NCBI GenBank assembly: GCA_016707605.1
Contig: JADJHJ010000010.1
Span: forward strand, 176,556 to 240,555
Direction: 5' to 3'
DNA from: Candidatus Promineofilum glycogenicum
GTDB lineage: Bacteria; Chloroflexota; Anaerolineae; Promineifilales; Promineifilaceae
Length of the DNA stretch: 64,000 nt
In this document: in pieces, positions 1,562 to 23,054 of the stretch
Numbering within the stretch: the first letter of the stretch is position 1
Layout: each line of letters begins with the position of its first letter
Made by a program: the position numbers and the translations under genes
The notes under the pieces: model-generated
What the model saw: only the letters and a program-made list of their open reading frames with translations
The model's database searches: none
Told to the model about the DNA's origin: nothing

Positions 1562-4500
1562 ATGTTAAGGAGCAATACACGCACTCTCTTTCTCGTCTTG
1601 GCCCTGGGCCTGTTGGGCGGGCTAGTGATGATTCGCCCGACGGCCGTCGAGGCCGGCATCTTCAATGCCAGTAATCAGGTCACTTACAAAGAGTACTGGG
1701 TCCACCATGACGAATTGACCGGCGGCTGCAACGCCGACGGCACGCCGACACACCCCGGCGGCACATGGTACATGGAAGTCGGCACGCGCCAGCGCTGCCC
1801 CAAGACGGTTGAATTCACCGTGCCCGATGATTTCAGCAACGCGGCCAAGGTCGAAATCTACCTTGACCTGTGGCGCGCCTACCATGAGCGCGGCCTCCAG
1901 TTCGAGATGAACGAAAGCGGCGTCGTCCATACCTCGCCCGTTGGCTATGACTGGAGCCGCACGCCCTGGATTCTGGAAGTTGACAAGGCCGAGTTAGAGC
2001 CTGGCCTGAATACCATCACCTTCTGGGCCACCCGGCTGACCCACATCCACGACATCGGCATTCGCATCTATCACAACAACGACAACCCGCTGCTGCCCGG
2101 CCCCGGCGGCGACGTGGAACCGCCGAACGGCCAACTGGTCTCCATTGAGGATGACGGCGGCGTCGTTTCGCCCGATGCCGGCGGCACGTTGATGGTCAAC
2201 GGCAATCAGTTGAAGCTGACGGCCGACATCTCGCCCGACACCCTCTACGTCGAGTTCCACGCCTGGTATGAAGGCTACGACGAGGACAACGACGGCGTCT
2301 TCCGCGACTGGCACAACCTGGGCCGCAACAACTGGTGGCCCGGCGGCCGCGAGGAGTTAGTCACCGGCGGCACCATCAACCACATCGCCACCGTCAAGCC
2401 CAAGAACAGCGCGACGACGGTGTCCACGACGTGGAACATGACCCACATCACCAACCAGTCGTTGATCAAGTTCAAGATCCGTGTGGTGGACGCCGCGGGC
2501 AACGTGCGCGAAGGGGCGGGCGGTATCTCGTCCGACTTCAAGTTGATGCGCAACGTACCCGTCAACGCCTTCATCCTCCACGACTTCACCGACTTCGGCC
2601 TGCACATGGACGGCAATCGGCCTGACTCGGTCAGCTACAACTTCATTATGCCGTCCACCATTGTCGACTACTACACCGAGTCGATTCTGGTCGGGGCCTA
2701 TTGGCGCAACCCCGCCTTCGCCATCAATGGTAGCGGCGGCATCTCGGCCAACTCCCCCGACTGGTCACTAGGGATCAAGTCGTTCCCCAAGGGCTACCTG
2801 GTCGCCGGGCTGAACCGCATCACCTATCAATACACCAATGGCGCCGGCCAATTTGTGGAGTACCCCGGCCCGATGTTCGTCCTGCGCCGGTCGGCGCCAG
2901 GCCCGGCCGACAACACCCCGCCGATCATCGGCGGCCAGTTGCCGGCGCCCAACGCGACCAACGTCGACGTCAAATCGCCCATCACCGCCCGCATCAGCGA
3001 CGACAAGTTCGGCGTTGACTGGCAGACGGTCAAGGTCACGGTCAACGGCGAGGACGTGACCAACAAGACCGACATCCAGGGTGTCATGGGCGACTACCTG
3101 CTGGTCTATGACCCGCCCGGCAACCTCGACTTCTCCACCGAGTACACGGTCAAGATCGAGGGCTGCGACCTGCTGAACAACTGCGCGTCGGCCGTGAACT
3201 ACAAGTTCAACACCGCCGCGCCCGACACCGCGCCGCCGGCCATTACCAACGTGGTGGCCGAGCCGCTGCCCAATGGCGTCAACATCAGTTGGACCACCAG
3301 CGAACCGGCCACCAGCCGCGTCGAATATGGCAAGACGACCAACTACGAGTTGGGCGTGGTCGAAGACACGACGCTGAAGACCAGCCACTACGCCGAAATC
3401 CGCGGCCTGCAACCCAGCACCCGCTACCACTTCCGGCTGAAGAGCACCGACGAGCAGGGCAACACCGCCACGACAAACGACAACACCTTCGACACGACCG
3501 AGTTCGGCGACCTGCTGTCCGATGACTTCAACGCCTGCGTCCTCGATTCGATGTGGACGGAGTTCGACCCGCAGGGCAATACCACCCTGAGCATGTCGGG
3601 CGAGACGCTGTCGCTGAGCTTCCCCGCCGGCGGCGCCCACGACTGGACGACCGGCGGCCCGCCGCGCGTCATGCAGTTGGCCGGCGACGTCGACTTCACC
3701 GTTGAGGTCAAGTTCGAATCGGCGTTGACCGTCCCCGGCCAGATGCAGGGCATCCTGATCGAAGAGGACGACGACACCTACGTCCGCGTCAGCTTCGAGC
3801 GCACGGCCACGGCCACGATCATGTTCTCGCGCTTCGTCAGCAACGGCGTCACCGTCAAGAGCGCCACCACGTCCTTCACCGATGGCACGGTCATCCCCAA
3901 CATGCTGCGCGTCAAGCGCGTCGGCGATAGCTTCCAGCGCTCCTACTACCAGGACGGCCAGTGGAAGGGGCAGGCGGCCTACACGATGGACATGACCCCC
4001 ATCCACGTCGGCGTCTTCGCCGGTGCGGCCGGCGCGGGCGGCACGGCTCCGGCCCACACCGCCGTCGTCGATTACTTCTTCAACACCGACATCCCCATCG
4101 TGCCCGAAGACGGCAATCCGATGAGCGTCGCCGTGGCCGTCGTCGGCAACGGCAGCGTGACCAAGCAGCCCAACAAGACCGTCTATACCTGCGGCGAGGA
4201 AGTCGTGCTGAGCGCGGTGACCGTCCCCGGCTGGTCGTTCGGCGGCTGGAGCGGCGACGTGACCGGCAGCGACCCGATGGCCTCGGTCATCATTGACGGG
4301 CCGAAGAACGCCACCGCCACCTTCACCCAGGATCAGTACGTCCTCAACGTGGCCATCGAAAACGACGGCGTCGGCGGCGAGCAGAACGCCGTGACGAAAA
4401 GCCCCGACCAGGCGACCTACGTCTACGGCGACCAGGTGCAACTGACCGCCGTGCCCCAACCGGGCTGGTCGTTCGTCGGCTGGACGGGCGCGGTCAACAG

Positions 4501-5563
4501 CGCCTCGCCCACCGTCATGCTGACGATGAACGAGAGCAAGTCCGTCACGGCCAAGTTTGAGCAGGATCAGTATGACCTGACGCTCAACGTCATCAACAAC
4601 GCTGTTGTGCCGGGCAGCGTCGGCGGGACGGTCTCGGCCACGCCGCAGAAGACGACCTACGTTTATGGTGACGTGGTCACGCTGCAAGCCAACACCAATC
4701 CCGGCTGGACATTCTCCGGCTGGAGCGGGGCCGTCACCTCGACTAATGCCACCGCGCAATTGACAATCACCGGCGACGCGGTCGTCAACGCCACCTTCAT
4801 CCAGGATCAGTACGAACTCGAAGTCGAGGTCGTCAGCCTGGGCAAGTCGGGCGTCGGCGGCTCCGTCTCGCTGAACCCGGCCAAGGGCAGCTACGTCTAC
4901 AACGACGTGGTCACCCTGGTGGCCGAGGCCAACGCCTGCTGGTCGTTCACGCGCTGGGAAGGCGACCTGAGCGGCACGAACGCGGTGGAAACGCTGACGG
5001 TGACGCGCGACATGGACGTGACCGCCGTCTTCACCCAGAATCGCCACACGCTGACCGTCAACAAGACCGGCCCCGGCCAGGTCGCGGTGACGCCGCAGAT
5101 GGCCGAATACTACTGCGGCGACAGCGTCACGCTGACGGCCACGCCGTCGCCCAACTTCTTCTTCACCGGCTGGTCGGGCGACCTGACCGGCGCGGAGAAC
5201 CCGCTGACCTTCACCATCGAGAAGAACACCGTCGTCACGGCGACCTTCTCCAACAACCCGCCGCCCATCGTCGAGCCGATTCCCGACAAGACGGTGAGCC
5301 TCAACGAACTCGTCACCTTCGCGGTGCGGGCCACTGACCCCGGCGGGACGACGGTCACGCTGACGGCCAACGGCCTGCCGCAGGGCGCGACGTTCGTGGA
5401 CAACGGCGGCGGCACAGGCACGTTCACCTGGCGGCCCAGCATCTCCCAGAGCGGCGAGTACACCATCACCTTCATCGCCTCCGATGGCAACGGCCAGGGC
5501 AGCCAGACCGTTCTCATCACCGTTGAAGGCCAGGCGGTCGTCTTGCCGATGATCATCCGCTAG
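1562..5563 (+). CDS. Giant secreted multidomain surface protein (1333 aa): signal peptide, Fn3-like domain, LamG-like jelly-roll, ~7 tandem divergent InlB-B repeats, cadherin/Ig-like module, C-terminal ...VVLPMIIR
   Basis: N-terminal MLRSNTRTLFLVLALGLLGGLVMIRPTAVEA signal peptide. Repeated '...GW(S/T)F.GW(S/T)G.V.G....T.T(M/V)....VTA.F' units. The 'TSRVEYGKTT...RYHFRLKSTDEQGN' block is Fn3/PAP-N-like. The same 'GILIEEDDD...VDYFFN' LamG block as the other two giants. Confidence 0.8.
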   Translation: MLRSNTRTLFLVLALGLLGGLVMIRPTAVEAGIFNASNQVTYKEYWVHHDELTGGCNADGTPTHPGGTWYMEVGTRQRCPKTVEFTVPDDFSNAAKVEIYLDLWRAYHERGLQFEMNESGVVHTSPVGYDWSRTPWILEVDKAELEPGLNTITFWATRLTHIHDIGIRIYHNNDNPLLPGPGGDVEPPNGQLVSIEDDGGVVSPDAGGTLMVNGNQLKLTADISPDTLYVEFHAWYEGYDEDNDGVFRDWHNLGRNNWWPGGREELVTGGTINHIATVKPKNSATTVSTTWNMTHITNQSLIKFKIRVVDAAGNVREGAGGISSDFKLMRNVPVNAFILHDFTDFGLHMDGNRPDSVSYNFIMPSTIVDYYTESILVGAYWRNPAFAINGSGGISANSPDWSLGIKSFPKGYLVAGLNRITYQYTNGAGQFVEYPGPMFVLRRSAPGPADNTPPIIGGQLPAPNATNVDVKSPITARISDDKFGVDWQTVKVTVNGEDVTNKTDIQGVMGDYLLVYDPPGNLDFSTEYTVKIEGCDLLNNCASAVNYKFNTAAPDTAPPAITNVVAEPLPNGVNISWTTSEPATSRVEYGKTTNYELGVVEDTTLKTSHYAEIRGLQPSTRYHFRLKSTDEQGNTATTNDNTFDTTEFGDLLSDDFNACVLDSMWTEFDPQGNTTLSMSGETLSLSFPAGGAHDWTTGGPPRVMQLAGDVDFTVEVKFESALTVPGQMQGILIEEDDDTYVRVSFERTATATIMFSRFVSNGVTVKSATTSFTDGTVIPNMLRVKRVGDSFQRSYYQDGQWKGQAAYTMDMTPIHVGVFAGAAGAGGTAPAHTAVVDYFFNTDIPIVPEDGNPMSVAVAVVGNGSVTKQPNKTVYTCGEEVVLSAVTVPGWSFGGWSGDVTGSDPMASVIIDGPKNATATFTQDQYVLNVAIENDGVGGEQNAVTKSPDQATYVYGDQVQLTAVPQPGWSFVGWTGAVNSASPTVMLTMNESKSVTAKFEQDQYDLTLNVINNAVVPGSVGGTVSATPQKTTYVYGDVVTLQANTNPGWTFSGWSGAVTSTNATAQLTITGDAVVNATFIQDQYELEVEVVSLGKSGVGGSVSLNPAKGSYVYNDVVTLVAEANACWSFTRWEGDLSGTNAVETLTVTRDMDVTAVFTQNRHTLTVNKTGPGQVAVTPQMAEYYCGDSVTLTATPSPNFFFTGWSGDLTGAENPLTFTIEKNTVVTATFSNNPPPIVEPIPDKTVSLNELVTFAVRATDPGGTTVTLTANGLPQGATFVDNGGGTGTFTWRPSISQSGEYTITFIASDGNGQGSQTVLITVEGQAVVLPMIIR

Positions 5564-14870: not shown

Positions 14871-17800
14871 ATGAGCAGAAAAGTACAGTTACGCTTTCTC
14901 TTGACCATCTGCCTGCTGGCCTGCGGCGCGGCGCTGCTACCGGCGGCCCGTCCGTTGGGCGCCGCGCCCGACGCCTTTGGCCTGACGGTCAACGTCAACC
15001 CGGCCGGCAAAGGCTCGGTCAGCGTCAACCCGCCGCCGCCCTATAACAACGGCCAGGTCGTGACCCTGACGGCCACGCCCATCGCCGGCTGGACGTTCGA
15101 CAAGTGGGCCTTGGCCAGTGATCTCGTCTGGTGGGACGCCGACTGGGACTACCGCGTCGAGGTGACGGCCGCCGCCGCCGGCCACGCGCGCAAGAACAAG
15201 CCGGCCGAGTTCGCCCTCAACTTCACCCAAATCTGGAGCACGCTGGGCAAGACGGGCACGCTCGACCCCAACTCCATCCGCGTCGTCGAAGTGGACGCCA
15301 ACGACGCCGTCATCGACGCCGACGTGCCCTTCCAGTTTGACAAGGCCGGCGACTACCACGCCGCCAACAAGGCCGCCGGCACGCTGGTGCTCATCATGCA
15401 GGGCAACACCCCCGCCGGGGCCAGCCGCCGCTACCACGTCTACTTCGACGTGACCGGCAAGGGCTTTGCCCCGCCCGCCGTCGCCCCACAAGTTGTCCTG
15501 ACCGACGGCGTTGTTGACGAGAATAACGCCGCCTACAAGATCGAGACGCCCAATGGCGTCTACTACTATCATCTGCTCGGCGCCGGCTTCTCCAGCCTCG
15601 ATGACGCCGACGGCAACGACTGGATCGGTTTCCATTACAACGTCGCCGGCAGCGGCGGCAAGTTCCGCGGCATCCCCAATGCCGTTTCGCCCAACAACGG
15701 CGGCCACTTCCACCCCGGTTCCAAAACGATGATCAGCACCCTGGTCAGCCAGGGGCCGCTGAAGGTCACGATCCACGCCCAGGAGAAGAAACCGACCGCC
15801 GGCCGCCCCAAGTGGCAAGGTCAATTCGAGATCTACCCCGACTACGTTGTCTTCACCATGCTGGTCGCGCCCTATGAGTATTGGGTGCTCTATGAGGGCG
15901 CGCCGGGCGGGACGCTGAATATCAGCAGCGACTTTGTCATGCGCAGCAATGGCACGCAAACCCTGGCCTCGGTGGCCTGGGAAGGGGATTTGGAGCCGGA
16001 GGAGTGGGCCTACGTGGGCGACCCGACCCTCGGCCGCTCCCTCTTCCTCACCAACAACATCGAAGACACCAAAATCGACTCCTACCACCAGGATGACGGG
16101 GATATGACCGTGCTGGGCCTGGGCCGCAAGAGCGCCGACTACCAGCTTGACCCCCTGCTTGTGCCGCGCGAATTCACCTTCGGCCTGATGGAAGAAACGG
16201 TCTACGCCGACGCCAAGCCGGTCATCTACAACGCCTACAAGCCCCTGACGGCCACCGTCGGCGCGGCCGAGGCGCGGGCCGGGGCCAACCTGGGCAGCAC
16301 CAACCCGGTCAACTTCACCATCACCGGCCAGCACACCATCACCGCCCACTTCAAGCCGGTGCAGTACACCCTGAACGTGGTCGCCAGCCCGGCCGACAAG
16401 GGTTCGGTCACTAAGTCGCCCAACAAGACCAGCTACGACTTCAACGAGCCGGTCACGCTGACGGCCACGCCCATCGCCGGCTGGGCCTTCGCCGGCTGGA
16501 GCGGCGACGTGACGGGCACGACCAACCCGGTCACGGTCAACGTGACCAAGAATATGAACGTCACGGCCACGTTCGCCCAATCCTTCACCATCACCACCAG
16601 CGTTAGCCCGACCGGTGGCGGCACGGTGACGCTGAACCCCAACAAGGCCACCTATGCGCCGGGCGAACAGGTGCAGGTGACGGCCACGGCCAACAGCGGC
16701 TACTCCTTCACCAACTGGAGCGGCGACCTGAGCGGCACGAACCCGAGCCAGACGGTGACGGTCAACGGCAACCTCAACATCGTCGCCAACTTCAGCGCCG
16801 CGCAATACACCTTCACCGCCACCTCGTCCGGCAACGGCGGCGTGAGTTGGACGCCACAGAAGGCGCTCTACGGCGCGGGCGAGGTTGTGACGGCCACGGC
16901 CACGCCCAACTCCGGCTACTACTTCGTCGGCTGGACGGGGACAGGCAGCTTCACGTCGACGGCCAACCCGGTCGAAGTGACCATCGCCGGCAACACCACC
17001 ATCACCGCCCACTTCGCGCCCATCGTCTACTATACACTGACGGTCAACGCCGTCGGCGGCGGCACGGTGTCGCGCGATCCTGACCTGACCCAATACCCGA
17101 CGGGCACGGTCGTCACCCTGGAAGCCACGCCCAACGCCCAAAAGCGCTTCGCCAACTGGAGCGGCAGCGTCACCGGCACGGTCAACCCCATCCAGGTGAC
17201 GATCACCAGCAACATGGCCGTCACGGCCAACTTCGTGGACGACGTCTACCCGCTGACCACCAGCGTCACCGGCCAGGGAACTATATCGGCCCAACCCGAC
17301 CAGCCGGCCGGCTACTTCATCGGCCAGCAGGTGACGCTGACGGCCACGCCGGCCGTGGGCTGGCAGTTCGTCGAGTGGTCGGGCGACGCCAGCGGAACCT
17401 CGCCGACGACGACAATCACCATCGCCGGGGCGACCAACGTCACCGCCGCCTTCACCCAACTGCCTCCGGTCACGCTGACCACCAGCACGGCCGGCAACGG
17501 CACGGGCACGATCCAGATCAACCCCGACAAGGACGAGTACGCCGTGGGTGAACAGGTGACACTGACGGCCGTGCCCGGCGCTAACTCCGTCTTCGCCGGC
17601 TGGTCGGGCGACGCCAGCGGCAGCAATAATCCGCTGCAACTGACGATGAACGGCAACAAGAACGTCGTGGCCCGCTTCATCGTGCCCAGCGGCCCGTTCA
17701 GCGACAACTTCAACACGTGCAGCCTGGGCGCGGTGTGGGGCACGCCTATCGACGAGAACGGCGACACTACCTTCACCTACACCGGCAAGACCCTGCGCAT

Positions 17801-18588
17801 CGCCGTGCCCGAAGGCGACGATCACGTCATCAACAAATCCCTCAACAACGCCCCGCGCATCATGCAGGCCGCCGACGACACCGACCTAGACTACGTCGTC
17901 AAGTTCAACTCCGACGTCACCCAGAGCGTGCAGACGCAAGGCCTGGTCATCGAAGAGAGCGACGAGAAGCTGATGCGGGTGGACTTTTACTATAACCCCA
18001 ACCAGGAGCCGGGCGTGCCCAACGACGAGGTCGTCGTCTACGCCGGCGTCTGGACGCCAGGGGTACTGCAAGAAGAAGCTCCTGCCCATCGCCGCCGCCG
18101 ACGCCAACTACCTGCGCGTCACCCGCGTCGGCGTCAAGTGGACCGTCTTCTATAGCGCCACCGGCCAGGAAGACGACTGGCAGAAGGCCGATGACTTCAA
18201 CTACGCCATGAGTGTGAACCGCGCCGGCGTCTATGCCAGCAACCTGCGGCCCACCGGCGCGACCGTGGCCCCGGCCTTCACGGCCGAGATCGACTTCTTC
18301 CACAACGCCACCGGCGCGCCGCTGCCGGCCGACGCCCCGCTGCTGACGGTCAACGTCGTCGGCAACGGCGCGGTCAGCGCCACGCCGCCGGCGGCGCAAC
18401 TGGCCTGCGGCCAGACGGTCACGCTGCGGGCCACGCCCGGCCTGGGCATGGAGTTCAGCGGCTGGAGCGGCGACGCCATCGGCGCGCAGAACCCGCTGTC
18501 GATGGTCATCAACCGCCCGCGCACGGTAACGGCTACGTTTACCGGGGCGGCTATGCAGTACATTGCCTTGCCGATGATCATTCGATAG
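14871..18588 (+). CDS. Giant secreted surface protein 3 (~1240 aa): signal peptide, InlB-B repeat, DUF2341-like region, ~8 InlB-B repeats, LamG-like jelly-roll, terminal InlB-B repeat, ends ...IALPMIIR. Apparent +1 frameshift near 18058-18085.
   Basis: ORFs 14871..18155 and 18208..18588 belong to one gene. 'ANYLRVTRVGVKWTVFYSATGQ' (frame of the second ORF, open from ~18050) aligns with 'NMLRVKRVGDSFQRSYYQDGQ' of CDS 1562..5563. The frame break lies in ccaggggtactgcaagaagaagct. Signal peptide MSRKVQLRFLLTICLLACGAALLPAARPLGA. Confidence 0.7.
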
Positions 18589-18731: not shown

Positions 18732-19205
18732 CTAGCGATAAATAGTTGCCGCCGCCCCACGCAACTCCACAAAGATAGGGTGCAGGCAGGCCATGATCGC
18801 TGCCAGCCGCCCGGCCACTTCGGCGCGATACGCCTCGGTCAGCGGCGCGTCGGGGTAGACCTCGTAGATCTTCGTCCAGCCCTTATCCCACATCTCCGCC
18901 TCCACGCTCTCGCCCAATTCCGCCTTGATCTCGAACAGGTGGCGGCGGAAGCCGTCGAGCAGGAAGCGGTTGAGCGTGTGGTCGCGCGCCTCGCAGTGGA
19001 AGCCCAACTCCCAGCCCCCCTCCGGCCGGCCGGGGCGCTCATAGACGCGGCCGACCTCGTAGTGTAGCGACCCCTCGCCATAGTGAATCTGGAGCAGTGT
19101 GTGCCACGGGTGGCGCGTCTGGAACCCTTGCAGCGGCGCGGGCAGCAGCGGACGCAGCGCGTCGGGCAGCGACTTGACAAAGGCCGTGTGGGATAACGTG
19201 TTCAT
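18732..19205 (-). CDS. Hypothetical protein (157 aa from ATG 19205; the ORF could extend to 19304)
   Basis: Open frame, divergent from the MTase gene. No recognisable motif. A start at MNTLSHTAFV is preferred because the upstream extension overlaps a hairpin/direct-repeat region. Confidence 0.45.
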   Translation of the reverse strand: MNTLSHTAFVKSLPDALRPLLPAPLQGFQTRHPWHTLLQIHYGEGSLHYEVGRVYERPGRPEGGWELGFHCEARDHTLNRFLLDGFRRHLFEIKAELGESVEAEMWDKGWTKIYEVYPDAPLTEAYRAEVAGRLAAIMACLHPIFVELRGAAATIYR

Positions 19206-19320
19206 TCTCTCTGTAGTATAATCCCCCTCAGACAGTTGCCAACCCACCCATTGTAGCGCGGGATGGTATCCCGCATCCGGGCTACTGAAGAGGCGGGTTG
19301 CCAACCCGCCCTACAACACC

Positions 19321-21120
19321 ATGATCACCAAGCAGCGCACCTGGGGCCAGTTCGCCACACCGACCGACGTGGCCGATCTGCTGCTGGGCTTCTGCCTGCG
19401 CCGGCCGGCCGACCGGCTGCTGGATCCCAGTTGCGGCGACGGCGCGCTGTTGCGGCGGGCGGCGCGCTGGCAGTCGTGGCTCTCCGCCTCGGCCGCCGCC
19501 CCACCACGCGATACGCTCTTCGGCGTCGAACTCGACGGCGAGTCGGCCGCCCGCGCCGCCGCCATCGCCGGGACGACGATTGTGCCGGCCAACTTCTTCG
19601 CCCTGGCTCCGGCGGCATCGCCCGCCCTGCCCGCCAACTGGCCGCCGGCCGGCTTCGACGCCCTCGTCGGCAACCCGCCCTACACCCGCGCCGAGTGGAT
19701 CGGCCGCCTGGGCGACGCCGCCCAACTGCCTCTCTTCGCCGCCGACCCGCCCGACGCGCCCGCCCCCGCCCGCGCCGTCCCGCCCGACCTGGCCGCCGCG
19801 CTCAGCGGTCGCGCCGGGCTGCACGCCTACTTCCTGCTCCACAGCCTGCCCTTCCTGCGCGACCGCGGCCGGCTGGGCTTCGTCATGCCCAACGGCTGGC
19901 TCGACGTGGCCTATGGCGCGGCCCTCAAGCGCTTCCTGCTCGACCACTTTCGCGTCGTGGCCGTCATCGAGTCGGCCGTCGAGCGCTGGTTCGCCGCCGC
20001 CGGCGTCAACACCTGCCTGCTCATCCTGGAGCGGGCCGACGACGCCGCGGCGCGGGCGGCTAACCGCGTCCGCTTCGCCCGCCTGACCCGCCCGCTGCGC
20101 GACCTGCTGGGCGGTGCGGCCGACGACGCCCGGCGCGTGGTGGCCGTGGAGCAACTGGTCGGCCGCCTGCTGCCCGGCGACGACCGGCCGGGCGGCGACG
20201 TGGCCGTGCGCGTGCGCCGCCAGGGCGACCTCGACCCCGCCGCGCGCTGGGGCGAACTACTGCGCGCCCCGGCCGTGGCCCTGCGCCCGTCGGCCCCGTC
20301 CACCGCGCCTCTTGGCCGCTGGGCCGTCGTCCAGCGCGGCCACACCACCGGGGCCAACGACTTCTTCTACCTCGACGCCGCCCACGTCGCCCAGTGGGGC
20401 ATCGAACCGGAGTTCCGCCGGCCGCTGCTGAAGTCGCTGCGCGGCGTGGCCCGCCTCCATCTGAGCGCCGCCGACACCGACCACGAGCTGCTGGCCATCC
20501 CCGCCGAGGCCCGGCTGGCGGGCACGGCCGCCGCGGCCTACGTCGCCTGGGGCGAGGGGCGCGGCCTGCACCGCCGGGCGACCTGCGCCGCGCGCCGGCC
20601 GTGGTACTGCCTCCACGCCCAGCCCGACGGCCAACTGCTGCTGGCCAAGGGCGTCTGGCAGCGCCACTTCGCCCCCCTGGCCGATGGGCCGGTGGCCGTC
20701 GATCAGCAGATCTACCGCCTGCGGATGGACACGGCGCTGCTGCCCGTGGCCGCGGCGCTGCTCAATAGCGCCTGGTTCGCCTTGCAGTGCGAGTTGCGCG
20801 GGCGGGTGAACCTCGGCGAGGGGGTGCTGTGGCTGGCGACCTACGAACTGGCCGCCATTCCCCTGCCCGATCCGACGATCCTCGACGCCGGGCAGAGGGC
20901 AGCGCTGGCCGCGGCCCACGCCCACCTGAGCGCGCGCCCCATCGCCCCCACCTCGGCCGGCGACCTGGCCCAACCGGAGCGGCTGGCGCTCGATGAACTC
21001 GTCTTTGACCTGGTTGGTCTGTCAGCCGCCGAGCGCCGCGCCGCCCGCGAGGCGCTGCTGGCCTGCCTCGACGGCCGCTGCCGCCGCGCCACCCAGCTTG
21101 CCCCGGAGAACGGTGCGTGA
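19321..21120 (+). CDS. Gamma-class amino-DNA methyltransferase (N6-adenine or N4-cytosine; Eco57I/TaqI-like MTase domain plus C-terminal target-recognition-like half)
   Basis: Motif X-like 'WGQFATPTDVADLL', motif I 'LDPSCGDGALL' and motif IV 'GNPPYTR' (NPPY). 599 aa with no nuclease motif seen. Confidence 0.8.
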   Translation: MITKQRTWGQFATPTDVADLLLGFCLRRPADRLLDPSCGDGALLRRAARWQSWLSASAAAPPRDTLFGVELDGESAARAAAIAGTTIVPANFFALAPAASPALPANWPPAGFDALVGNPPYTRAEWIGRLGDAAQLPLFAADPPDAPAPARAVPPDLAAALSGRAGLHAYFLLHSLPFLRDRGRLGFVMPNGWLDVAYGAALKRFLLDHFRVVAVIESAVERWFAAAGVNTCLLILERADDAAARAANRVRFARLTRPLRDLLGGAADDARRVVAVEQLVGRLLPGDDRPGGDVAVRVRRQGDLDPAARWGELLRAPAVALRPSAPSTAPLGRWAVVQRGHTTGANDFFYLDAAHVAQWGIEPEFRRPLLKSLRGVARLHLSAADTDHELLAIPAEARLAGTAAAAYVAWGEGRGLHRRATCAARRPWYCLHAQPDGQLLLAKGVWQRHFAPLADGPVAVDQQIYRLRMDTALLPVAAALLNSAWFALQCELRGRVNLGEGVLWLATYELAAIPLPDPTILDAGQRAALAAAHAHLSARPIAPTSAGDLAQPERLALDELVFDLVGLSAAERRAAREALLACLDGRCRRATQLAPENGA

Positions 21121-21806
21121 GCGACGACGCTCGCCGCGCCCAGTACGCCGCCGTCTTTGACCTGCTGGCCGAGGTCTACGGCCGTCCCGTCTGGCGCTCC
21201 CACGGCCCGCCGCTCGACGAACTGATCTACACCATCCTGTCGCAGGCCACGGCCGACGTCAACACCGCCCGCGCCTACGCCGAACTGACCGCCCGCTTCC
21301 CCGACTGGCCGAGCGTCATGAACGCCCCGCCGCAAGCGGTCAGCGCCGCCATCCGCTCCGCCGGCCTGTCGAACATCAAGGGGCCGCGCATCCAGAACGC
21401 GCTGCGCCACGTTCTGCACGAGCGGGGAGAGCTGTCGCTCGACTTCCTGGCCGACCTGCCGCTGGACGAGGCGCAGGCCTGGCTGACGGCTATCGAAGGG
21501 GTGGGGCCGAAGACGGCGGCCATCGTCCTGCTTTTCTCGCTCGGCCGCCCCACTTTCCCGGTCGATACCCACGTCCACCGCGTCAGCCTGCGCCTGGGCC
21601 TGCTCCCGCCGCGCACCAACGCCGTCAAGGCCCACACCCTGCTGGCCGCCCTCGGCCCGCCGGAGACGTACTACGCCATGCACATCAACCTCATCCGCCA
21701 CGGCCGCGAACTCTGCCGCGCCCGCGCCCCGCTGTGCCACATCTGCCCGTTGCAAGACCACTGTGACTATTACCGATCCACCGCCGTCCGTGCCGCGGAT
21801 GCTTAG
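21117..21806 (+). CDS. nth: Endonuclease III-like HhH-GPD DNA glycosylase with C-terminal [4Fe-4S] cluster loop
   Basis: HhH 'GVGPKTAAIVLL' and 'PVDTHVHRV'. C-terminal C-X6-C-X2-C-X5-C (CRARAPLCHICPLQDHC). The GTG start overlaps the MTase stop (GTGA). Confidence 0.85.
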   Translation: MSDDARRAQYAAVFDLLAEVYGRPVWRSHGPPLDELIYTILSQATADVNTARAYAELTARFPDWPSVMNAPPQAVSAAIRSAGLSNIKGPRIQNALRHVLHERGELSLDFLADLPLDEAQAWLTAIEGVGPKTAAIVLLFSLGRPTFPVDTHVHRVSLRLGLLPPRTNAVKAHTLLAALGPPETYYAMHINLIRHGRELCRARAPLCHICPLQDHCDYYRSTAVRAADA

Positions 21807-21885
21807 GTTCCAGGTTCCGGGGGCCAGGTTCCAGGGGAAGACGTGTCTTCCCCTGGAACCTGGCCCCTGGAACCTTCTTTAGCGT
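21807..21885. repeat. 'ccagg' family palindromic element
   Basis: ggttccaggttccgggggccaggttccaggggaagacgtgtcttcccctggaacctggcccctggaacc. Confidence 0.7.
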
Positions 21886-21918
21886 CTTCGCGCCGAATCC
21901 TCTACAATAAACCCGCAC

Positions 21919-22566
21919 ATGGCCGCCACACGCACACGCACGAACGACGAGTGGGTCGAAGACCTGCGCCAATCCGGCCCGCGCCGCGAGGCCGCGCTCG
22001 ACGATCTGCGCCAGGTATTGGCCAACGGCCTGCGGCGCGGTCTCGTCGGCCAGGTGGACACCAACGCCCCCGAGTTCGATACCCTGGTCGATGACTTCGT
22101 GCAGGAGACGCTGCTGAAGGTGCTCGACAACCTCGGCTCCTTTGCCGGGCGCAGCCTCTTCACCACCTGGGCTAACAAAATCGCCCTCAACATCGGCCTG
22201 ACCGAGTTGCGGCGCAAGCGCTGGCGCGACAGCTCGCTCGACCAGTTGACCCAGACCGACGACGGCGAATTTACCCCGTCGTTTGTGGCCGACCTGTCGC
22301 CGCGGCCGGAGGCGCTGACCGAGCGGCGCGAACTGCTGGCCTACGTCAGCCGGCTCATCGGCGAGGAGTTGACCGAGAAGCAGCGCACCGCCCTCGTCGC
22401 CGCCGTCATTCAGGGCAAGCCGCTCAGCGAGGTGGCCCACATGATGGACTCTAACCAGAACGCCATCTACAAGCTGCTGTTCGACGCGCGGCAGCGCCTG
22501 CGGCGGCGCATGGCTGAAGATGGGTTGACGCCGGAGGATGTGCTGTCGTCGTTCGTCGATAACTAA
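21919..22566 (+). CDS. ECF-type sigma-70 family RNA polymerase sigma factor
   Basis: Region 2 (FVQETLLKVLDNLGSF...TTWANKIALN) and region 4 HTH (LSEVAHMMDSNQNAIYKLLFDARQRLRRRM). Confidence 0.85.
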   Translation: MAATRTRTNDEWVEDLRQSGPRREAALDDLRQVLANGLRRGLVGQVDTNAPEFDTLVDDFVQETLLKVLDNLGSFAGRSLFTTWANKIALNIGLTELRRKRWRDSSLDQLTQTDDGEFTPSFVADLSPRPEALTERRELLAYVSRLIGEELTEKQRTALVAAVIQGKPLSEVAHMMDSNQNAIYKLLFDARQRLRRRMAEDGLTPEDVLSSFVDN

Positions 22567-22569
22567 CCC

Positions 22570-22712
22570 ATGCGTCGCACCTTCTTCTCTCCCGGTGCAT
22601 CGCACTTTCTGAAGTGCGTTGCACCTTCTTGAGGGGTTCGCAAGGAAAGGGCGACACACTTAAGAAAGTGCCAGGCACTCGGGAAAGTGCCAGGCACTGA
22701 GAGCGGTAAGAA
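22570..22712. repeat. 'tgcgtcgcac' family palindromic element plus direct repeat aaagtgccaggcact x2
   Basis: tgcgtcgcaccttc...gtgcatcgcactttc...gtgcgttgcacc; the same family fills 29780-29960 and 46951-47340. Confidence 0.6.
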
Positions 22713-22742
22713 AGATTGGCAAGGATGCGTCAGAGAGGCAGA

Positions 22743-23054
22743 ATGTCAAGCGTGATCGACACTATACGACGGCTCCTGGAGCGCCCCGCCCAGTCTGAGC
22801 CTGGCGTCGTCGTCCCCCTCGACGACCCATCGATCGACCGTCTCCTGCACCTGCTTTGCGACACCCGCGACGATGAGCTGTCGTGTGATGAGGTGTTCAT
22901 CCGCCTGGACGAGTACGTGGACTGCCTGATCAGCCACGGCCAGGTAGTGGAGTCCCAACCCCTCATCGAGCACCACCTGGGCCTGTGCGCCGATTGCCGC
23001 GACGAGTTGCGCGCCCTGCAACGAGCGTTGGCCCGGGCCGCGGCCGACGACTGA
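22743..23054 (+). CDS. Putative zinc-finger (zf-HC2/ZAS-like) anti-sigma factor
   Basis: HHLGLCADC (HxxxCxxC) motif, small size, immediately downstream of the ECF sigma gene. ATG 22743 is preferred over the listed TTG 22716. Confidence 0.55.
   Translation: MSSVIDTIRRLLERPAQSEPGVVVPLDDPSIDRLLHLLCDTRDDELSCDEVFIRLDEYVDCLISHGQVVESQPLIEHHLGLCADCRDELRALQRALARAAADD

What the first reader, a model, noticed from the sequence alone, without database searches (positions are those of the whole stretch)
19321..21806. Methyltransferase and endonuclease-III-like glycosylase in an overlapping (GTGA) operon
A 599-aa gamma-class amino-MTase (NPPY) with a target-recognition-like C-terminal half is translationally coupled to a 229-aa HhH-GPD/[4Fe-4S] DNA glycosylase. 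No nuclease gene is present. A MTase-glycosylase pairing is not a canonical R-M arrangement. Three roles for the glycosylase seem possible:
- a restriction-like enzyme excising bases at unmodified sites
- a repair or 'demethylation' partner
- an anti-phage factor acting on modified bases

The divergent upstream 157-aa hypothetical gene and the downstream ECF sigma / anti-sigma pair may be co-regulated with it.
Basis: partly seen in the sequence, partly recalled or inferred. Interest (0 to 1): 0.6.

Follow-up and report, generated by a model that had tools for sequence, protein, structure and literature searches.

The report
Orphan adenine methylase plus repair glycosylase
A DNA adenine methyltransferase with no restriction partner is co-transcribed with an endonuclease-III-like repair glycosylase in one lineage of sludge Chloroflexota; the pairing is real and conserved but looks like an inherited housekeeping operon, not a new defence system.

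Summary
A 599-aa gamma-class N6-adenine MTase (NPPY) at 19321-21120 overlaps by GTGA a 229-aa HhH-GPD/[4Fe-4S] glycosylase at 21117-21806, and no nuclease gene is nearby.

The pair is a true conserved operon. The glycosylase lies directly downstream on the same strand in 54 of 57 assessable species of Promineifilaceae/Ardenticatenaceae-type Chloroflexota, often with 4-nt overlaps.

The evidence favours a vertically inherited chromosomal arrangement over an R-M-like or defence module:
- Flanking genes are ordinary chromosomal genes, and no phage relatives of the MTase were found.
- The MTase's recognition half is as conserved as its catalytic half.
- Its best structural matches are M.BseCI and the orphan MTase CamA.
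- The glycosylase belongs to a widespread DrEndoIII1-type family. In a glycosylase-anchored metagenome sample, 58 of 60 relatives lack the MTase and sit beside unrelated metabolic genes.
- No residue separates linked from unlinked glycosylases.
- Uncoupling occurs in both directions.

The conserved divergent 157-aa gene has a YktB/YbjN chaperone-like fold, not a nuclease fold. The ECF sigma/anti-sigma pair is not part of the conserved unit.

A functional tie, such as repair of methylase-associated lesions, remains possible but untested. Whether these genomes also carry a canonical nth could not be checked. Interest is modest.

The parts
19321..21120 (+). Solitary gamma-class N6-adenine DNA methyltransferase, 599 aa. 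It has an N-terminal catalytic domain (motif I at nt 19423-19443, NPPY at nt 19672-19683) and a C-terminal M_Eco57I_C-type recognition half.
   Evidence: Full-length structural matches are M.BseCI, CamA and BpuSI (the model is moderate, pLDDT 65). Outgroup homologs are 880-1160-aa Type IIG-like fusions.
21117..21806 (+). Endonuclease-III-like HhH-GPD/[4Fe-4S] DNA glycosylase, 229 aa, of the DrEndoIII1 type. Lys132 is at nt 21510-21512, Asp150 at nt 21564-21566 and Cys200-Cys216 at nt 21714-21764.
21117..21120 (+). GTGA start/stop overlap (translational coupling), with a GGAG Shine-Dalgarno-like element at 21105-21108.
   Evidence: Equivalent ATGA/GTGA/TTGA overlaps or short gaps occur in relatives.
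18732..19205 (-). Divergently transcribed conserved 157-aa protein of unknown function with a YktB/DUF1054 and YbjN / type-III-chaperone-like alpha/beta fold. It is frequent in the neighbourhood but only loosely linked.
19206..19320 (.). Divergent promoter region. The conserved TAGTATAAT box (19214-19222) reads as TATAAT on + and TATACT on -. The window-specific palindromes at 19259-19275 and 19292-19310 are not conserved.

Best explanation
This is a vertically inherited chromosomal operon of Promineifilaceae/Ardenticatenaceae-type Chloroflexota. It co-expresses two DNA-maintenance enzymes.

(i) The first is an orphan N6-adenine DNA methyltransferase. It is a nuclease-less relative of Eco57I/Type IIG enzymes and is architecturally like M.BseCI and CamA. 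It most likely writes m6A at one fixed motif across the chromosome (inferred).

(ii) The second is an EndoIII-like glycosylase of the DrEndoIII1 group. It has a full catalytic set (HhH Lys, Asp, 4Fe-4S) and most likely does general base-excision repair, with or without AP-lyase nicking (inferred from residues).

The operon is read from a compact divergent promoter, and the glycosylase is translated by coupling to the MTase stop codon. The pairing arose within this lineage, when the MTase came to lie upstream of a pre-existing stand-alone glycosylase gene, and has been kept since.

It is not a restriction-modification or defence module. Any functional dependence between the two enzymes is at most an add-on, for example repair of by-product lesions of methylation.

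Shown: gene identities, coupling, conservation, phyletic pattern and contexts. Inferred: the enzyme activities, the target base, and the absence of mechanistic dependence.
For: - Adjacency: same strand, under 400 nt, in 54 of 57 species, with many 4-nt overlaps. 3 of 3 further glycosylase orthologs lie next to the MTase.
- Co-inheritance: MTase and glycosylase pairwise identities correlate, r = 0.78.
- Contexts: flanks are ordinary genes (glucokinase, histidine kinases, proteases, RecR, MgsA). No integrase, transposase or defence genes. No viral relatives. No close plasmid copies of the pair.
- MTase conservation: the C-terminal recognition half is as conserved as the catalytic half over 56 species (0.62 vs 0.65). 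That is the pattern of fixed-specificity orphan MTases. The top structural matches include the orphan MTase CamA.
- Glycosylase family without the MTase: 58 of 60 metagenome relatives lack it. They lie next to unrelated genes such as asparaginase II, an MBL hydrolase, FTHFS, SpoIIE and MFS. The same holds on haloarchaeal and Azospirillum replicons.
- No specialisation: no discriminating residue, and catalytic residues are conserved equally in both sets.
- Uncoupling both ways: MTase without an adjacent glycosylase in L021, L051 and L091. A glycosylase 75% identical to a linked one sits behind a response regulator in L141.
- No nuclease: the upstream gene is not a nuclease.
Against: - Tight translational coupling kept across divergence down to about 45-50% MTase identity is more than neutral synteny usually preserves. 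The outer flanks are kept in only about 15 of 67 species. This hints at selection on co-expression and possibly a functional tie.
- The glycosylase's closest characterised relatives, DrEndoIII1 and DrEndoIII3, have weak or no activity on classical EndoIII substrates (PMC9268735). Its true substrate is therefore unknown.
- It scores below every curated Nth equivalog cutoff.
- I could not check whether these genomes carry a second, canonical nth.
- L141 and similar short contigs cannot show that the MTase is absent from the genome, only that it is not adjacent.
Confidence: 0.62

Rival explanations
1. Damage-control partner. The glycosylase is kept in the operon because the MTase generates lesions as a by-product, for example off-target N1/N3 alkylation, or abasic or oxidised bases at flipped-out targets. 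A co-expressed HhH-GPD enzyme removes them in proportion to MTase dose.
For: The coupling is conserved while the flanks are not. The HhH-GPD superfamily includes alkyl-base glycosylases (PMC11754123, found). DNA MTases are reported to damage DNA by alkylation, with AlkB-dependent mutagenesis (bioRxiv 10.64898/2026.01.24.701492). The DrEndoIII1-type clade has atypical, poorly defined substrates (PMC9268735).
Against: No residue signature separates MTase-linked from unlinked glycosylases. The MTase persists without an adjacent glycosylase in at least three species. The documented MTase-damage precedents concern C5-cytosine MTases, not N6-adenine enzymes.
Confidence: 0.2
2. Restriction glycosylase. 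The HhH-GPD enzyme excises the unmethylated target base at the MTase's motif and nicks the abasic site. This would make it a functional analogue of R.PabI built on a different fold.
For: An m6A-type MTase is paired with a glycosylase that keeps the Schiff-base lysine. There is no other nuclease. R.PabI shows that methyl-inhibited base excision can act as restriction (PMC4357717).
Against: The pattern is vertical and lineage-wide, in stable housekeeping contexts, with no mobile or defence neighbours. The recognition domain is conserved rather than diversifying. The 229-aa minimal EndoIII fold has no extra sequence-reading module. Close glycosylase relatives exist without the adjacent MTase, which a toxic restriction activity should not tolerate. 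No viral or plasmid copies were found.
Confidence: 0.05
3. Eraser or anti-phage reader. The glycosylase removes methylated or hypermodified bases. It could excise m6A to reset the epigenetic mark (ROS1-like), or attack modified phage DNA.
For: The plant 5mC glycosylase ROS1 scores slightly better than E. coli Nth in the PDB search (1.7e-21 vs 1e-19). EndoIII-like domains are used as modified-base sensors in END nucleases (PMC12191111).
Against: In END nucleases the EndoIII domain is catalytically dead and fused to a nuclease. Here it is intact and free-standing. Co-expressing a writer and an eraser from one coupled transcript would be futile. There is no defence-island context. The family mostly occurs without any MTase.
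Confidence: 0.04

Closest known systems
CamA (C. difficile) and other lineage-conserved orphan N6-adenine MTases (Dam, CcrM)
   Same: A solitary m6A-type MTase with no cognate nuclease, conserved across a whole lineage with a conserved recognition domain. The CamA and M.BseCI structures are the best full-length matches to the model.
   Different: Only 12-15% sequence identity. The target motif and cellular role are unknown here. None of those enzymes is described as translationally coupled to a glycosylase.
M.Eco57I / Type IIG R-M enzymes (Eco57I, MmeI, BpuSI)
   Same: Eco57I-type catalytic domain plus an M_Eco57I_C recognition domain. The nearest outgroup homologs are Type IIG-like fusions.
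   Different: No fused or adjacent nuclease, and a vertical, non-mobile distribution.
D. radiodurans EndoIII-1 (DR2438; PDB 4unf/8a5c) and EndoIII-3
   Same: Best solved relatives (E 1e-51, about 46-50% identity). They share a ~10-residue insertion relative to E. coli Nth. The catalytic Lys and Asp and the 4Fe-4S motif are present.
   Different: It lacks DrEndoIII1's signature Arg61 and Tyr100, having Ala (with a Gln one position earlier) and the canonical Leu. It scores below the NF053634 cutoff (193 vs 400). The Deinococcus genes are not reported with an MTase partner.
M.MthTI / Mig.MthI (C5-MTase with an HhH-GPD T/G mismatch glycosylase), and Dcm/Vsr
   Same: A DNA MTase encoded beside a repair enzyme, and in Mig's case an HhH-GPD [4Fe-4S] glycosylase. 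There are weak matches to the Mig-type PADLOC model (1.8e-7) and to PDB 1kea (3e-7).
   Different: There the partner MTase makes 5mC, whose deamination creates the T/G substrate. Here the MTase is an amino (N6) type, so that rationale does not apply. The glycosylase is EndoIII-like, not Mig/MutY-like. The Mig biology is stated from my own knowledge.
R.PabI / R.CcoLI restriction glycosylases
   Same: An m6A MTase paired with a base-excising enzyme and no phosphodiesterase (PMC4357717).
   Different: Those enzymes have the HALFPIPE fold, are sequence-specific and belong to mobile R-M systems. Here the fold is HhH-GPD, the inheritance is vertical, and there is no evidence of sequence specificity.

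Membership tests
Gamma-class N6-adenine DNA MTase (Pfam N6_Mtase / Eco57I) | AdoMet motif I followed by the catalytic (N/D)PP(Y/F) motif IV, scoring above the Pfam gathering thresholds | tested here: met
   49.5 and 43.8 bits against cutoffs of 20.4 and 25.3. LDPSCGDG at residues 34-41 precedes NPPY at 118-121, and both are invariant.
Gamma-class N6-adenine DNA MTase (Pfam N6_Mtase / Eco57I) | C-terminal target-recognition domain | tested here: met
   PF22837 M_Eco57I_C is on record for the identical protein. PADLOC MTase_II 7.5e-42 spans residues 329-522. Full-length structural alignment to M.BseCI and CamA (the model is weak in this half).
Type II / IIG restriction-modification system | A cognate endonuclease, fused or adjacent | tested here: not met
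   No nuclease domain in the 599-aa protein. The neighbours are a chaperone-like fold protein, a glycosylase and an ECF sigma factor.
Type II / IIG restriction-modification system | Mobile, patchy distribution with diversifying specificity | tested here: not met
   67 species of one lineage, stable contexts and a conserved recognition half. No viral copies.
Endonuclease III (Nth, TIGR01083 equivalog) | HhH-GPD fold with catalytic Lys and Asp and a Cx6Cx2Cx5C 4Fe-4S loop | tested here: met
Endonuclease III (Nth, TIGR01083 equivalog) | Score above the curated equivalog cutoff | tested here: not met
   96.6 bits against a cutoff of 211.7. PRK10702 gives 75 against 405.
Endonuclease III (Nth, TIGR01083 equivalog) | Excision of oxidised pyrimidines with AP-lyase activity | not testable with these tools
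   Needs an enzyme assay.
DrEndoIII1-type monofunctional glycosylase (NF053634) | Score above the curated cutoff | tested here: not met
   Best NCBIfam hit, but 192.9 bits against a cutoff of 400.
DrEndoIII1-type monofunctional glycosylase (NF053634) | Arg61 and Tyr100 in the DNA-intercalating loops (PMC9268735) | tested here: not met
   Ala and Leu at the aligned columns. The clade insertion LSLDFLADLP is shared.
Restriction glycosylase (R.PabI, HALFPIPE) | HALFPIPE fold | tested here: not met
   The protein is HhH-GPD.
Restriction glycosylase (R.PabI, HALFPIPE) | Methyl-inhibited, sequence-specific base excision | not testable with these tools
   Needs an enzyme assay on methylated and unmethylated motif DNA.
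MADS defence system (MAD2 methyltransferase) | Score above the NF047738 cutoff, with the other mad genes present | tested here: not met
   57 bits against a cutoff of 720. No other mad genes among the neighbours.
Lineage-conserved orphan MTase (functional class: Dam/CcrM/CamA-like) | No cognate nuclease, present across a lineage, conserved specificity domain | tested here: met
Lineage-conserved orphan MTase (functional class: Dam/CcrM/CamA-like) | Genome-wide methylation of one motif with a regulatory or replication role | not testable with these tools
   Needs SMRT/ONT methylome data and genetics.

The most novel reading that the evidence does not exclude
The coupling is functional. The EndoIII-like enzyme reads the MTase's mark. 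For example, it could excise a base at the motif only when the motif is unmethylated or hemimethylated, as a domesticated HhH-GPD analogue of R.PabI used for strand discrimination or chromosome surveillance. Alternatively it could clear methylation-derived lesions. Either way, this would be a previously undescribed bacterial m6A-linked base-excision pathway fixed in one Chloroflexota lineage.
Probability: 0.12. Interest if true: 0.8.

Novelty: new member of a known kind. Interest (0 to 1): 0.3.

Why it matters
If the ordinary reading holds, this adds one more lineage-conserved orphan adenine methyltransferase, in the abundant activated-sludge filament group Promineifilaceae. It is a candidate epigenetic regulator worth matching to a motif in existing nanopore MAG data.

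It is also a cautionary example. A translationally coupled MTase-glycosylase pair can look like an exotic R-M system and still be inherited housekeeping.

If the two enzymes do depend on each other, the operon would give a handle on the unknown natural substrate of the DrEndoIII1/3-type glycosylases. These have weak or no activity on classical EndoIII substrates. It would also be a first link between bacterial m6A and base-excision repair.

Tried and rejected
- **Upstream gene as a hidden restriction enzyme: rejected.** The confident model (pLDDT 92) has a YktB/YbjN/T3SS-chaperone-like fold and no nuclease matches. There is no Pfam hit even at E<5.
- **C-protein-like operator in the divergent intergenic region: rejected.** The window's palindromes are absent from relatives. 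Only a -10-like TAGTATAAT box is conserved.
- **ECF sigma / anti-sigma as part of the unit: rejected.** They are present in about 16 of 67 species.
- **Phage or plasmid origin: no support.** No viral relatives. Only distant plasmid hits for either gene, and none as a pair.
- **Second Nth paralog:** none in the window or in 1.4 Mb of held related loci.
- **AFDB fold search:** the library was unavailable.
- **NJ tree of linked and unlinked glycosylases:** linked members were not recovered as one pure clade. The tree has no support values, so I rely on nearest-neighbour and column statistics instead.
- **MTase structure model:** only moderate quality (pLDDT 65, poor in residues 339-464). I use it only for overall architecture.
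- **Literature searches:** searches for an MTase-EndoIII operon or for Promineifilum methylation motifs found nothing relevant.
Full report
**1. What is in the sequence**

The two ORFs are exactly as reported. One runs 19321-21120 (+, 599 aa) and the other 21117-21806 (+, 229 aa, GTG start). The junction GCGTGAGC makes the glycosylase's GTG overlap the MTase's TGA by four bases, and a GGAG lies 8 nt upstream. Gene calls on near-identical activated-sludge and wastewater contigs agree.

Gene 1 matches Pfam N6_Mtase and Eco57I. It has motif I before NPPY, which is the gamma-class order, and both motifs are invariant in homologs. M_Eco57I_C is on record for the identical protein.

Gene 2 is an HhH-GPD protein with the endonuclease-III iron-sulfur motif.

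No nuclease is present. PADLOC sees only methyltransferase models for gene 1, and a weak Mig-type model for the glycosylase.

**2. The glycosylase's family**

- Its closest solved relatives are D. radiodurans EndoIII-1 (E 1e-51) and EndoIII-3. Plant ROS1 and E. coli Nth follow far behind, at about 1e-21 and 1e-19.
- It scores below every curated Nth cutoff and below the DR2438-family cutoff.
- It keeps the catalytic Lys132 and Asp150 and all four cluster cysteines.
- It shares a ~10-residue insertion with DrEndoIII1.
- It has the canonical Leu where DrEndoIII1 has Tyr100, and Ala where DrEndoIII1 has Arg61.
- Published work shows that DrEndoIII1 is a weak, mostly monofunctional enzyme, and that DrEndoIII3 has no detectable activity on classical substrates (PMC9268735). 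Groups 1 and 3 form clades separate from canonical Nth (PMC10523315).

The natural substrate of this type of enzyme is therefore genuinely uncertain.

**3. Is the pairing conserved?**

It is, within one lineage. A scan of one genome per species with an MTase alignment gave 67 loci at 39% identity or more. Nearly all are Promineifilaceae, Ardenticatenaceae or Anaerolineae MAGs.

- The glycosylase lies directly downstream on the same strand in 54 of 57 assessable species.
- Many of these have ATGA, GTGA or TTGA overlaps.
- Three further glycosylase orthologs looked up independently are also preceded by the MTase.
- The outer flanks (ECF sigma, anti-sigma, DUF427, glucokinase) persist in only about 15 of 67 species. 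The pair is therefore the persistent unit.
- MTase and glycosylase pairwise identities co-vary, r = 0.78.

**4. Is it a specialised MTase-linked glycosylase clade?**

It is not. I ran a reciprocal scan of metagenomes seeded from the edge of the linked lineage. It returned 80 glycosylase relatives at 46-61% identity to the window protein. That range overlaps the 53-82% seen among linked orthologs.

- Only 2 of 60 assessable loci have the MTase upstream.
- The others sit beside unrelated genes. One arrangement recurs: an MBL-fold hydrolase, asparaginase II and then the glycosylase. This family therefore also forms conserved adjacencies with plainly unrelated partners.
- More distant members on haloarchaeal and Azospirillum replicons have no MTase neighbour either.
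- No alignment column cleanly separates linked from unlinked proteins, and catalytic residues are equally conserved in both sets.
- Uncoupling occurs in both directions. The MTase lacks an adjacent glycosylase in L021, L051 and L091. A glycosylase 75% identical to a linked one follows a response regulator in L141.

**5. Is it defence-like or mobile?**

There is no sign of it.

- Flanks in divergent lineages are ordinary chromosomal genes.
- No viral contig carries a relative of the MTase.
- Plasmid hits are distant and unpaired.
- The MTase's recognition half is as conserved as its catalytic half over 56 species. That is the opposite of the diversification typical of R-M specificity domains.
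- Its nearest outgroup homologs (26-34% identity) are 880-1160-aa Type IIG-like fusions. The Chloroflexota enzyme therefore looks like a nuclease-less relative.
- The model, of moderate quality, aligns over its full length best with M.BseCI and with the orphan MTase CamA.

**6. The neighbours**

The divergent upstream gene is 157 aa, strongly conserved, and has no known domain.

- Its confident model has a YktB/DUF1054 and YbjN / type-III-chaperone-like fold, not a nuclease fold.
- It is adjacent and divergent in 42 of 59 species and within 6.4 kb in eight more.
- In some lineages it is transcribed behind a Ser/Thr kinase instead. Its tie to the operon is therefore loose.
- The intergenic spacer carries a conserved -10-like box usable in both directions. 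The window-specific palindromes are not conserved.

**7. Interpretation**

The best-supported reading has three parts:
- an inherited housekeeping operon that couples an orphan m6A methyltransferase to a base-excision glycosylase;
- an origin within this lineage;
- no restriction or defence role.

The persistence of tight coupling leaves room for a functional tie. Repair of methylase-associated lesions is the most plausible version. Restriction-like, eraser and anti-phage roles are disfavoured by the phyletic pattern, and by the existence of unlinked close relatives.

The main gap is that I could not test whether these genomes also carry a canonical nth. Enzyme assays and methylome data would settle the rest.

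Noticed in passing
window 14871-18588: The large Flg_new_2/DUF1349-type repeat surface-protein gene appears frameshifted near 18050-18070. The 1094-aa ORF ends in an Arg-rich tail. Another frame is open from 17980 to 18588 and continues sensible protein. The homolog on L094 is called as one 1246-aa gene, and the region is indel-rich relative to it. This could be a pseudogene, strain variation or an assembly error.
   Followed up: partly
window 21919-23054: The ECF sigma factor (21919-22566) is followed by a small protein (22716-23054) carrying an HX3CX2C motif (HLGLCADC). That motif is typical of zinc-binding, redox-sensing ZAS anti-sigma factors. The pair follows the glycosylase in only about 16 of 67 species.
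   Followed up: partly
window 19259-19275 and 19292-19310: Two near-perfect palindromes, GCGGGATggtATCCCGC and GGCGGGTTGcCAACCCGCC, plus a direct repeat GTTGCCAACCCRCCC, sit in the divergent intergenic spacer. They lie in a ~55-nt stretch that is absent from relatives with 54-64-nt spacers. It may be a small inserted repeat element.
   Followed up: partly
L102, L112, L131, L134, L136, L151, L172 (about 2000-4650 in each): In other lineages the same glycosylase family is the last gene of a recurrent same-strand row: an MBL-fold hydrolase (~288 aa), asparaginase II (~350 aa), then the glycosylase. This is a conserved adjacency with no obvious functional logic.
   Followed up: partly
L021 3967-7376, L089 1186-4544, L091 1968-5329: Homologs of the 157-aa chaperone-fold protein overlap the stop of a ~970-aa Ser/Thr kinase-TPR-DIP2311_C gene on the same strand. 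This suggests the small protein's real partner may be that kinase.
   Followed up: no
L012 11991-14246: In one species four small genes, the last a winged-helix (HTH_34) regulator, are inserted between the MTase and the glycosylase on the same strand.
   Followed up: partly
window 20001-22000: This is the highest-GC 2-kb bin of the window (0.735, against about 0.61-0.72 elsewhere). It coincides with the 3' half of the MTase and with the glycosylase.
   Followed up: no
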